Below, in pieces: positions 44,630 through 44,754 of a DNA stretch of 64,000 bases. Location of the stretch: the IMG/VR virus record IMGVR_UViG_3300013104_000002, positions 82,491 through 146,490 of that record; one strand, 5' to 3'. The DNA comes from a virus. The notes below the pieces were generated by a model, which was not told the DNA's origin, ran no database searches, and saw nothing but the letters and a program-made list of their open reading frames with translations. Position numbers and translations under genes: made by a program. Position 1 is the stretch's first letter. Each line of letters begins with the position of its first letter.

Positions 44630-44754
44630 GTTGAGATGGTGGAATTAGTAGACACTATATTGAATAAAATCCATTGGTATGACAGGTATGCCTATTTAAT
44701 ATGAAAATGTGAATAATAGTAGCATTTATGTAGGTTCAAGTCCTACTCTTGACT
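44630..44754 (+). tRNA. tRNA-Leu-like RNA with an expanded anticodon arm (atypical or pseudo-tRNA)
   Basis: Acceptor GTTGAGA/TCTTGAC; Leu-type D arm GTG-GAATTAGTAGA-CAC; T arm GTAGG-TTCAAGT-CCTAC; variable stem AAATG/CATTT; 125 nt long. Confidence 0.6.

What the first reader, a model, noticed from the sequence alone, without database searches (positions are those of the whole stretch)
44630..44754. tRNA-Leu-like RNA whose anticodon arm is replaced by a long insertion
Seen: acceptor, Leu-type D arm, variable arm and canonical T arm are intact, but ~46 nt occupy the anticodon arm. They form a 10-bp stem ATATTGAATA/TATTTAATAT enclosing a GGTATG/TATGCC hairpin. A relic ATTGA-A-TAA-AA-TCCAT resembles the tRNA-Leu(UAA) anticodon arm. 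No CCA is encoded. Inference: a non-decoding tRNA mimic (for example a decoy for host anticodon nucleases or for LeuRS, which does not read the anticodon), a tRNA with an unusual intron, or a processing signal that releases the downstream RNA.
Basis: partly seen in the sequence, partly recalled or inferred. Interest (0 to 1): 0.7.

Follow-up and report, generated by a model that had tools for sequence, protein, structure and literature searches.

The report
Non-decoding tRNA-Leu-shaped phage RNA
A 146-kb phage of a probable Bacteroidota host carries, right behind a conserved promoter, a 125-nt RNA gene that keeps the shell of a leucine tRNA but has no anticodon loop, so it cannot decode and is either a tRNA-shaped helper RNA or a disabled tRNA gene.

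Summary
Window 44630-44754 (+) has an intact acceptor stem, Leu-type D arm, T arm and long variable arm. A 46-nt arm (10-bp stem, 9-nt bulge, inner hairpin) replaces the anticodon stem-loop. Rfam tRNA scores 27.9 bits, just under the cut-off of 29, and it is the only tRNA-model hit in the genome. Default ARAGORN finds nothing.

It cannot decode. No cut-and-join gives a credible anticodon loop, and the phage lacks RtcB, Rnl2-type ligase and CCA-adding enzyme. Two leucine identity elements are missing (U73 instead of A73; A at G18), so a LeuRS decoy is unlikely. With no anticodon loop, an anticodon-nuclease decoy is also unlikely.

The RNA starts about 5 nt after a Bacteroidota-type promoter (TAGATTTG). 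This promoter recurs in the genome and in relatives. Relatives hold another structured RNA, or nothing, at the same place.

No homologue of the element exists in any collection searched, so covariation cannot be tested. Analogues do exist: an anticodon-loop-less cloverleaf in a relative, and 41 distinct expanded Leu-shell RNAs in other viral contigs, one family with compensatory changes.

Best reading (about 0.45): a transcribed tRNA-scaffold RNA handled by tRNA-processing enzymes. Main rival (about 0.3): a disabled tRNA gene. The same stretch was also noted once more in an overlapping window of this genome (e1-5902650).

The parts
44590..44620 (+). Promoter: TTGCAT, 17 nt, then TAGATTTG (Bacteroidota-type -7 box TAnnTTTG at 44613-44620). 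The transcription start is predicted near A44625.
   Evidence: Sequence. It is 89% identical over 37 nt to the promoter at 11959-11995 and 85% over 33 nt to the one at 13772-13804. The same motif occurs in relatives L010, L074, L083, L086, L090 and L093. Consensus as quoted in PMC7366714. The start site is inferred, not measured.
44627..44629 (+). Leader bases TAA that pair with trailer 44754-44756, extending the closing stem from 7 to 10 bp. This is unusual for a true pre-tRNA.
   Evidence: Fold of 44624-44900.
44630..44636 (+). Acceptor stem, 5' strand (GTTGAGA).
44637..44656 (+). U8, G9, the class-II (Leu-type) D arm and N26. D stem 44639-41/44653-55. A44647 replaces the near-universal G18.
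   Evidence: Rfam alignment. That set is biased towards this D arm.
44657..44702 (+). 46-nt arm replacing the 17-nt anticodon stem-loop: 10-bp outer stem, 9-nt bulge (44667-75) and inner 6-bp hairpin (44676-92).
   Evidence: Shuffle test P = 1.6e-4. No other copy of this segment in the genome.
44703..44729 (+). Expanded variable arm: 6-bp stem (44705-10/44722-27) with an 11-nt loop.
44730..44746 (+). Canonical T arm GTAGG-TTCAAGT-CCTAC.
44747..44754 (+). Acceptor stem 3' strand (TCTTGAC) and discriminator T. No CCA is encoded.
44757..44775 (+). Pyrimidine run plus GCGCGAAAA. This is a recurring junction/leader motif of this phage lineage and marks the end of the RNA slot.
   Evidence: Nine copies in the genome. 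The same motif follows the same promoter in L074, L090 and L093.
44788..44882 (+). Second structured segment (three-way junction with a 10-bp closing stem) between the motif and the ATG at 44901. It probably lies on the same transcript.
   Evidence: Fold. The energy is not significant. It was not examined further.

Best explanation
The element is a transcribed RNA derived from a tRNA-Leu gene that no longer decodes.

**What it keeps.** It retains the parts of a tRNA that processing and stabilising enzymes read: the acceptor/T-arm minihelix and the D/T elbow.

**What has changed.** The anticodon stem-loop is replaced by a long helix carrying a small bulged hairpin, and the variable arm is enlarged. 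This is the natural counterpart of the laboratory 'tRNA scaffold'.

**Proposed mechanism (inferred).** Host RNA polymerase starts about 5 nt upstream at a strong lineage-typical promoter. The tRNA-shaped domain folds at the very 5' end of the transcript. RNase P and RNase Z (or RNase E) may then release it as a stable small RNA and at the same time set the 5' end of the downstream leader and mRNA. Alternatively it stays attached as a protective 5' domain. The two expanded arms would carry the specific activity, whose partner is unknown.

**Shown:** tRNA descent, absence of any anticodon loop, intact pairing in all helices, and the promoter context.

**Inferred:** transcription, processing, stability and any trans-acting role.
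For: **tRNA descent**
- Rfam tRNA 27.9 bits, E 6.7e-5 genome-wide, the only such hit in the genome.
- The D arm is of the Leu type.

**No decoding**
- Default ARAGORN is silent.
- With the intron option it gives only an arbitrary Asn(AUU) call.

**Structure looks maintained, not decayed**
- The fold has 38 pairs, and every position in its six helices is a standard pair (37 if the D stem is drawn with 3 bp, as in model R1). This holds although the element differs from a canonical tRNA-Leu in at least four ways: arm replaced, variable arm enlarged, G18A, U73.
- The flush 10-bp stem has P = 1.6e-4.

**Expression context**
- The conserved TAnnTTTG promoter ends 9 nt before the RNA, and two more copies lie in the genome.
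- The same promoter type directly precedes an expanded Leu-shell RNA in L174 (1934-2052) and a normal tRNA-Phe in L151.

**Slot logic**
- In L074 the same promoter runs straight into the junction motif.
- In L093 a different 125-nt structured RNA (z -3.3) sits between promoter and motif.

**Shape without decoding recurs**
- Relative L010 has a clean cloverleaf whose anticodon loop is reduced to 3 nt (6214-6282, z -2.2).
- G001 has a 144-nt expanded element.
- This genome has two acceptor-plus-T-arm minihelices just upstream of genes.

**Such RNAs can be under selection**
- 41 distinct expanded Leu-shell elements occur in IMG/VR.
- One family of four shows 6 pairs with compensatory changes.

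**Scaffold precedent**
- Acceptor, T and D arms suffice for processing and stability in vivo (PMC3753655).
Against: - There is no homologue, so no covariation or conservation test is possible. All neighbouring proteins are singletons at 90% identity. Model R1 finds nothing in relatives. Pattern scans of viral, metagenome and genome collections found none.
- The closest relatives with DNA available (73-79% exonuclease identity) lack the element.
- Folding energy is ordinary (z about -0.7).
- Leader and trailer pair (10-bp closing stem), which is atypical for RNase P substrates.
- G18 is lost, which should weaken the elbow.
- There are no expression data.
- The minihelix at 32935-32996 is absent upstream of 80 homologues of its downstream gene.
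- No target or partner for the expanded arms was found.
Confidence: 0.45

Rival explanations
1. It is a disabled tRNA gene (pseudogene). A phage tRNA-Leu sitting in a slot that often holds a tRNA was inactivated by insertion or rearrangement in the anticodon arm. It has not yet been deleted. The promoter survives because it also drives the downstream genes.
For: - The element is lineage-specific and absent from the nearest relatives.
- The slot downstream of the exonuclease gene is hypervariable and holds homing endonuclease, TnpB and small ORFs in relatives.
- Relatives carry ordinary tRNA-Met genes there (L080) or damaged-looking ones. G001 has a tRNA-Met-like gene with a degenerate T loop. 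L010 has a loop-deleted cloverleaf.
- Identity and tertiary elements are lost (A18, U73; PMC9976931).
- The score is below Rfam's cut-off.
- Folding energy is not significant.
Against: - At least four separate differences from a canonical tRNA-Leu exist, yet no stem position is mispaired.
- The replacement arm is itself a flush 10-bp helix (P = 1.6e-4), not random filler.
- The genome is densely coding, so non-functional DNA should not persist.
- Comparable expanded shells elsewhere show compensatory changes.
Confidence: 0.3
2. It is purely a cis-acting 5' leader element. The tRNA-like fold is not released. It serves as a 5'-terminal structure that protects or regulates the mRNA for the small ORFs starting at 44901, and is interchangeable with the unrelated structured RNA in the same slot of L093.
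For: - The closing stem begins 2 nt from the predicted start site and extends into leader and trailer.
- L093 has a non-tRNA structure in the same promoter-to-motif slot, also starting at the transcript's 5' end.
- L074 has no insert there.
Against: A simple hairpin would do the same job. This reading does not explain why a complete D arm, T loop and elbow are retained. Nothing shows that the transcript reads through the T-run at 44760-66.
Confidence: 0.15
3. It is a decoding tRNA with a short unconventional intron that is removed by an unknown host or phage activity.
For: - ARAGORN with the intron option returns a model.
- Other viral contigs have tRNA-Leu(UAA)-like genes with 30-41 nt inserted exactly between U34 and A35 (L018, L057, L045).
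Against: - The only join that gives U33 yields anticodon AUU with U37 and an all-A/U stem, which is not a known tRNA (and my enumeration on the sequence).
- There is no bulge-helix-bulge motif.
- The insert is too short for group I splicing.
- The phage has no RtcB or Rnl2-type ligase.
- U73 and A18 are also present.
Confidence: 0.05
4. It is a decoy or sponge for a host factor that reads the tRNA top half, for example a defence toxin acting on acceptor ends.
For: Only indirect. The top half and elbow are retained while the decoding parts are gone. The promoter is of a recurring, probably early, type.
Against: No candidate target was identified. The RNA lacks CCA and the phage has no CCA-adding enzyme, although the host enzyme could add CCA. 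By design it is not an anticodon-nuclease decoy.
Confidence: 0.05

Closest known systems
Bacterial and phage class-II tRNA-Leu
   Same: 7-bp acceptor stem, U8, 3-bp D stem with an 11-nt D loop (GGAATT.GTAGAC), long variable arm, canonical T arm and T loop.
   Different: No 7-nt anticodon loop (a 46-nt arm instead). Variable loop of 11 nt. A at position 18. U73 instead of A73. No CCA. Leader-trailer pairing. Below Rfam's cut-off and not called by ARAGORN.
Engineered 'tRNA scaffold' chimeras (Ponchon and Dardel; PMC3753655)
   Same: Acceptor, D and T arms are kept. The anticodon stem is prolonged into a helix that carries a foreign hairpin. That design exists because cells process and stabilise such RNAs.
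   Different: This element is natural and phage-encoded. Its cargo is unknown, and its processing and stability are untested.
Viral and cellular non-decoding tRNA mimics used as processing signals (MHV68 vtRNA-miRNA units, mascRNA, plant mitochondrial t-elements) - from my own knowledge
   Same: A tRNA-shaped RNA that is not aminoacylated and whose recognition by RNase P or RNase Z releases neighbouring RNA.
   Different: Those are eukaryotic or organellar systems. No such unit is established for phages of Bacteroidota. The downstream partner here is a leader or mRNA, not a miRNA.
tmRNA tRNA-like domain and bacterial YrlA (Y RNA-like) RNAs - from my own knowledge
   Same: tRNA mimicry in which the anticodon arm is replaced by a long helix.
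   Different: tmRNA: no G3:U70/A73 alanine identity and no tag frame, and ARAGORN's tmRNA mode finds nothing. YrlA: there the RNA ends lie in the long helix, whereas here they form the acceptor stem. Neither family matches in Rfam.
Expanded Leu-shell tRNA-like genes in other viral contigs (found here: L174, L016, L026, L062, L025/L047/L058/L030, L088)
   Same: Same D-arm and T-arm shell, 50-80 extra nucleotides in the middle, no consistent anticodon. L174 lies behind the same promoter type.
   Different: Different acceptor sequences and middles. They keep G18G19 and mostly A73. Many lie in tRNA/tmRNA clusters of other phages. Homology to this element was not shown.
tRNA pseudogenes and tRNA gene fragments in prokaryotes (PMC9897764, title seen only)
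   Same: Partial tRNA signature and no decoding capacity.
   Different: All helices are intact, it has its own promoter, and the replacement arm is structured.

Membership tests
tRNA (Rfam RF00005), functional decoding tRNA | Score at or above the family's gathering cut-off (29 bits). | tested here: not met
   27.9 bits, with 65 nt where the model has 13. Same value in the genome-wide search.
tRNA (Rfam RF00005), functional decoding tRNA | 5-bp anticodon stem closing a 7-nt loop with U33 and an anticodon. | tested here: not met
   A 46-nt arm with a 10-bp stem takes its place. Default ARAGORN finds nothing.
tRNA (Rfam RF00005), functional decoding tRNA | Acceptor stem, T arm with T54-C56/A58 and G53-C61, U8, A14, G19. 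| tested here: met
   All are present in the sequence and in the Rfam alignment.
tRNA (Rfam RF00005), functional decoding tRNA | G18 for the D-loop/T-loop contact. | tested here: not met
   A at 44647.
tRNA-Leu identity (E. coli rules) | Discriminator A73. | tested here: not met
   T at 44754. Rule from PMC9976931. The rules in Bacteroidota are not tested.
tRNA-Leu identity (E. coli rules) | G18G19 and an intact D/T tertiary contact. | tested here: not met
   A18 G19. Rule from PMC9976931.
Intron-containing tRNA (group I in the anticodon loop) | A catalytic intron core of about 200 nt or more, matching Intron_gpI. | tested here: not met
   The insert is 31-46 nt and has no Rfam Intron_gpI match.
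Intron-containing tRNA (protein-spliced, bulge-helix-bulge) | Two 3-nt bulges flanking a 4-bp helix, and a sensible anticodon loop after removal. | tested here: not met
   There is one 9-nt bulge on the 5' side only. The only join with U33 gives AUU/U37.
tmRNA | tRNA-Ala-like domain plus tag reading frame. | tested here: not met
   ARAGORN's tmRNA mode finds nothing. No Rfam tmRNA match.
tRNA-like processing or scaffold RNA (functional class, not a curated family) | Cleavage by RNase P at +1 and by RNase Z after the discriminator, and accumulation as a stable RNA. | not testable with these tools
   This needs RNA end mapping or in-vitro cleavage.
tRNA pseudogene | Neutral decay: stem-breaking substitutions in relatives, and no expression. 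| not testable with these tools
   No homologue exists in the collections. Within the single copy no stem position is mispaired.

The most novel reading that the evidence does not exclude
Phages of Bacteroidota, and many other phages, may use a class of natural 'tRNA-scaffold' RNAs. In these, a conserved Leu-type tRNA shell guarantees processing, stability and abundance. The anticodon and variable arms are replaced by fast-evolving cargo hairpins that bind or titrate host factors, for example defence proteins. This element, the anticodon-less cloverleaf in L010 and the 41 expanded shells in IMG/VR would all be members of that class.
Probability: 0.2. Interest if true: 0.8.

Novelty: new variant of a known kind. 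Interest (0 to 1): 0.55.

Why it matters
Phage tRNA genes are usually read as codon-supply or as replacements for tRNAs cut by defence nucleases. A tRNA-shaped RNA that cannot decode but is kept intact behind a strong promoter points to a different use of the tRNA fold. That use could be as a processing handle, a stabilising scaffold, or a protein-binding decoy.

If the wider set of expanded Leu-shell RNAs found here is one functional class, it is an unannotated family of phage non-coding RNAs. Current tRNA finders either miss these elements or mislabel them with arbitrary anticodons and introns.

If it is only a dead tRNA, the value is practical. It would be an example of how intron-tolerant tRNA callers produce false 'tRNA-Asn(AUU)' annotations.

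Tried and rejected
- **Close homologues.** I searched by BLAST against phages, exact and degenerate DNA patterns in viral, metagenome and genome collections, neighbours of 157 exonuclease homologues and 4 homologues of the 101-aa gene, whole IMG/VR records of relatives with RF00005, and a custom covariance model. None was found. The best candidate contig (P0002, 88% identity, with a 172-nt gap in the right place) has no DNA available.
- **Intron reading.** Rejected; see the rival explanations.
- **tmRNA and YrlA.** Rejected on topology and searches.
- **Host-derived tRNA.** A genome-wide pattern for the same D and T arms found one odd Clostridiaceae tRNA only, so there is no host clue.
- **Antisense targets of the bulge or loops.** Within the phage only chance-level matches turned up.
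- **Repeated or mobile copy of the 46-nt insert.** None exists.
- **Phage tRNA-repair or splicing enzymes.** No PolyA_pol/CCA enzyme, RNA_ligase or RtcB. T4 Rnl1-type ligase and PNK were not searched.
- **Conservation of the minihelix at 32935-32996.** It is absent upstream of 80 homologues of the downstream gene.
- **Literature.** Four literature searches for phage tRNA introns, tRNA-like decoys or leaders, and non-canonical tRNAs found no description of such elements.

Full report
**1. What is there**

The window is the last 64 kb of a 146,490-bp IMG/VR virus record with 30% G+C and a 123-bp terminal repeat. The standard genetic code fits it.

Positions 44630-44754 (+) form a class-II cloverleaf:
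- Acceptor stem 44630-36/44747-53 (7 bp, two G.U).
- U8 and G9.
- A 3-bp D stem with the 11-nt Leu-type D loop.
- A 46-nt arm at 44657-44702.
- A variable arm at 44705-27.
- A canonical T arm at 44730-46.
- Discriminator T44754, with no CCA.

The minimum-free-energy fold equals the centroid and reproduces exactly this drawing. Rfam's tRNA model gives 27.9 bits against a cut-off of 29, with E 6.7e-5 for the genome, and aligns 65 nt where the model has 13. It is the only tRNA-model match in the whole phage. Default ARAGORN finds no tRNA in the window.

The 46-nt arm has ten flush end pairs. That happens in 1.6e-4 of shuffles of the same composition and at about 0.4% of start positions in this genome. 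Folding energy is ordinary (z about -0.7). Only the 'relic anticodon arm' (44659-74) was not shown to exceed chance.

**2. It cannot decode**

With the intron option ARAGORN returns 'tRNA-Asn(AUU)' with a 31-nt intron at position 33/34.

I went through all joins that keep a 5-bp stem next to N26 and next to the variable arm. The only loops with U33 are CUAUUUA and UUAUUUA. Both mean anticodon AUU with U37 on an all-A/U stem, which is not a known tRNA.

Several further points count against splicing:
- There is no bulge-helix-bulge motif. The fold has one 9-nt bulge on one side only.
- The insert is far too short for a group I intron.
- No Intron_gpI match is found.
- The phage has no RtcB, no Rnl2-type RNA ligase and no CCA-adding enzyme.

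Leucine identity in E. coli needs A73 and G18G19. Minimal tRNA-Leu molecules that lack the anticodon and variable arms are still charged, unless A73 or the D/T contact is changed (PMC9976931). This RNA has U73 and A18. It is therefore a poor candidate for charging or for titrating LeuRS. With no anticodon loop it is also not a mimic for anticodon nucleases.

**3. Context: a promoter and an RNA slot**

The upstream gene (43836-44585) is a PD-(D/E)XK-type exonuclease in the replication module.

Directly after its stop codon lies TTGCAT-N17-TAGATTTG (44590-44620). The second box fits the Bacteroidota primary-sigma -7 consensus TAnnTTTG (PMC7366714). This suggests a Bacteroidota host and a start near A44625. 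Both points are inferred.

The same 24-37-nt promoter occurs twice more in this genome. At 11959-11995 it heads a roughly 540-nt ORF-free region, and at 13772-13804 it sits directly before a gene. It also occurs in relatives.

After the tRNA-like RNA comes TTCTTTTTTTGCGCGAAAA (44757-75). This motif has nine copies in the genome, often 17-25 nt before start codons.

Relatives show the logic of the slot:
- In L074 (exonuclease 79% identical) the same promoter runs straight into the motif.
- In L093 the same promoter is followed by a different 125-nt structured RNA (z -3.3) and then the motif.
- Here the slot holds the tRNA-like RNA.

In full context the closing stem extends to 10 bp (44627-36/44747-56), starting 2 nt from the predicted start. 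That is unusual for a pre-tRNA and typical of a 5'-terminal structural domain.

**4. Relatives and conservation**

No homologue of the element was found:
- All six neighbouring proteins are singletons at 90% identity.
- The nearest relatives with DNA (L006, L008, L010, L012, L014, L074; 73-79%) have other genes downstream of the exonuclease gene and no such RNA.
- Whole IMG/VR records of relatives give only ordinary tRNA-Met genes.
- A covariance model built from this element finds nothing in 0.52 Mb of relatives.
- DNA pattern scans of the viral, metagenome and genome collections were negative.

**5. Analogues**

Within the lineage, tRNA genes or tRNA-shaped RNAs recur downstream of the exonuclease gene:
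- L080 has a normal tRNA-Met.
- G001 has a tRNA-Met-like gene with a degenerate T loop next to a 144-nt element with acceptor and T arm and a 113-nt middle.
- L010 has, inside a 738-nt ORF-free region, a clean cloverleaf whose anticodon arm is a 5-bp stem with a 3-nt loop (6214-6282, z -2.2).

This genome also has two acceptor-plus-T-arm minihelices just upstream of start codons, at genome 6577-6640 and at window 32935-32996. The second is not conserved upstream of 80 homologues of its downstream gene.

Outside the lineage:
- A pattern for the Leu-type D arm followed 52-82 nt later by a T loop found 59 viral loci with 41 distinct elements, to which ARAGORN assigns inconsistent anticodons and introns.
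- One of the same kind (L174:1934-2052) sits 11 nt after the same promoter type, and a normal tRNA-Phe does so in L151.
- Four members of one family (L025, L047, L058, L030) share the middle but differ in the acceptor and T stems, with 6 pairs changed on both sides. They lie beside phage tmRNA genes.

Expanded, non-decoding Leu shells can therefore be maintained by selection. Homology of those shells to this element is not shown.

**6. Interpretation**

Firmly shown:
- The RNA is tRNA-derived.
- It has no decoding capacity.
- All helices are intact.
- It has a promoter context.

Two readings remain.

*Functional tRNA-shaped RNA (about 0.45, plus 0.15 for a purely cis-acting leader version).* The element differs from a tRNA-Leu in at least four independent ways, yet no stem position is mispaired. 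The replacement arm is a designed-looking helix. The genome is compact. The retained parts are exactly those used in laboratory tRNA scaffolds to obtain processing and stability (PMC3753655).

*Disabled tRNA gene (about 0.3).* The element is an orphan in a hypervariable slot. It has lost G18 and A73. Relatives show what could equally be a graveyard of damaged tRNAs.

An intron-bearing tRNA and a top-half decoy each get about 0.05.

**7. Novelty**

Non-decoding tRNA mimics are known: viral vtRNAs, mascRNA, tmRNA and YrlA domains, and t-elements. This is therefore a new variant of a known kind rather than a new principle.

Four literature searches found no description of a phage tRNA-Leu shell with both inner arms expanded, or of the wider set seen here. 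The search was limited to the open library.

Noticed in passing
window 32935-32996; also genome 6577-6640 (outside the window, about 75.9 kb upstream of its start): There are two 60-64-nt 'top-half' tRNA mimics. Each has a 7-bp acceptor stem directly joined to a T arm (GCAGG-TTCGATT-CCTGC; GGG-TTCGATT-CCC), discriminator A and then CTAA. Each lies 22-24 nt before a start codon. The first passes a strict scan that finds 3 elements in the genome against 0.8 in shuffles.
   Followed up: partly
window 44788-44882: A three-way-junction fold with a 10-bp closing stem lies between the GCGCGAAAA motif and the ATG at 44901. It is probably on the same transcript as the tRNA-like RNA. Its energy is not significant.
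   Followed up: partly
window 44757-44775, 12261-12272, 24821, 33229-33240, 36210-36221 and others: A pyrimidine run plus (T)GCGCGAAAA recurs nine times in the genome, often 17-25 nt upstream of start codons. It follows the conserved promoter in relatives L074, L090 and L093. Its role (promoter, operator, processing or translation signal) is unknown.
   Followed up: partly
window 11959-12503: A promoter 89% identical to the one before the tRNA-like RNA heads a roughly 540-nt ORF-free, apparently structured region that contains one copy of the GCGCGAAA motif. There is no Rfam match.
   Followed up: no
L010:5760-6497: This is a 738-nt ORF-free region in a 140-kb relative. It holds an anticodon-loop-less cloverleaf (6214-6282). 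Near its end is a minihelix with a TTCGATT loop, abutting GCGAAAAATAA and the next ATG.
   Followed up: partly
L213:18810-19560 (- strand; record G001): This ORF-free region of about 700 nt holds a CCA-ending tRNA-Met-like gene with a degenerate T loop (19337-19408) and a 144-nt element with acceptor and T arm and a 113-nt middle (19050-19193).
   Followed up: partly
L025:1657-1781, L047:1480-1604, L058:7642-7766 (-), L030:679-806: A family of 123-128-nt Leu-shell RNAs shares a conserved 70-nt middle. Six pairs in the acceptor and T stems carry compensatory changes. In L047 it lies just downstream of a phage tmRNA gene (992-1347).
   Followed up: partly
L016:370-491, L026:6054-6174 (-), L015:8753-8853 (-), L062:4748-4865, L174:1934-2052: These elements share an almost identical shell (AGTCAGG...CCTGACT-A-CAA, Leu-type D arm, ACAGG/GCAGG T arm). 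Their 55-75-nt middles are completely different, as if a constant tRNA frame carried variable cargo.
   Followed up: partly
L017:300-381, L020, L022, L024, L031, L033, L041, L071 and others: These are viral contigs carrying class-II-shaped tRNAs. They have a normal anticodon arm with a conserved GUU anticodon, G73-CCA, and a variable arm with a 7-bp stem and 14-nt loop. This is an Asn-type anticodon on a Leu-type body.
   Followed up: no
L018:6624-6719, L057 and L072, L045: These tRNA-Leu(UAA)-like genes have 30-41 nt inserted exactly between U34 and A35, the position of the cyanobacterial group I intron. The inserts are far too short to be a group I intron.
   Followed up: no
L089:6151-6243 (-), Clostridiaceae bacterium scaffold QXXE01000019.1: This is the only cellular-genome hit with the same D and T arms. 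It is an odd 93-nt class-II tRNA that ARAGORN cannot assign ('tRNA-???'), and it lies next to a tRNA-Ser.
   Followed up: no
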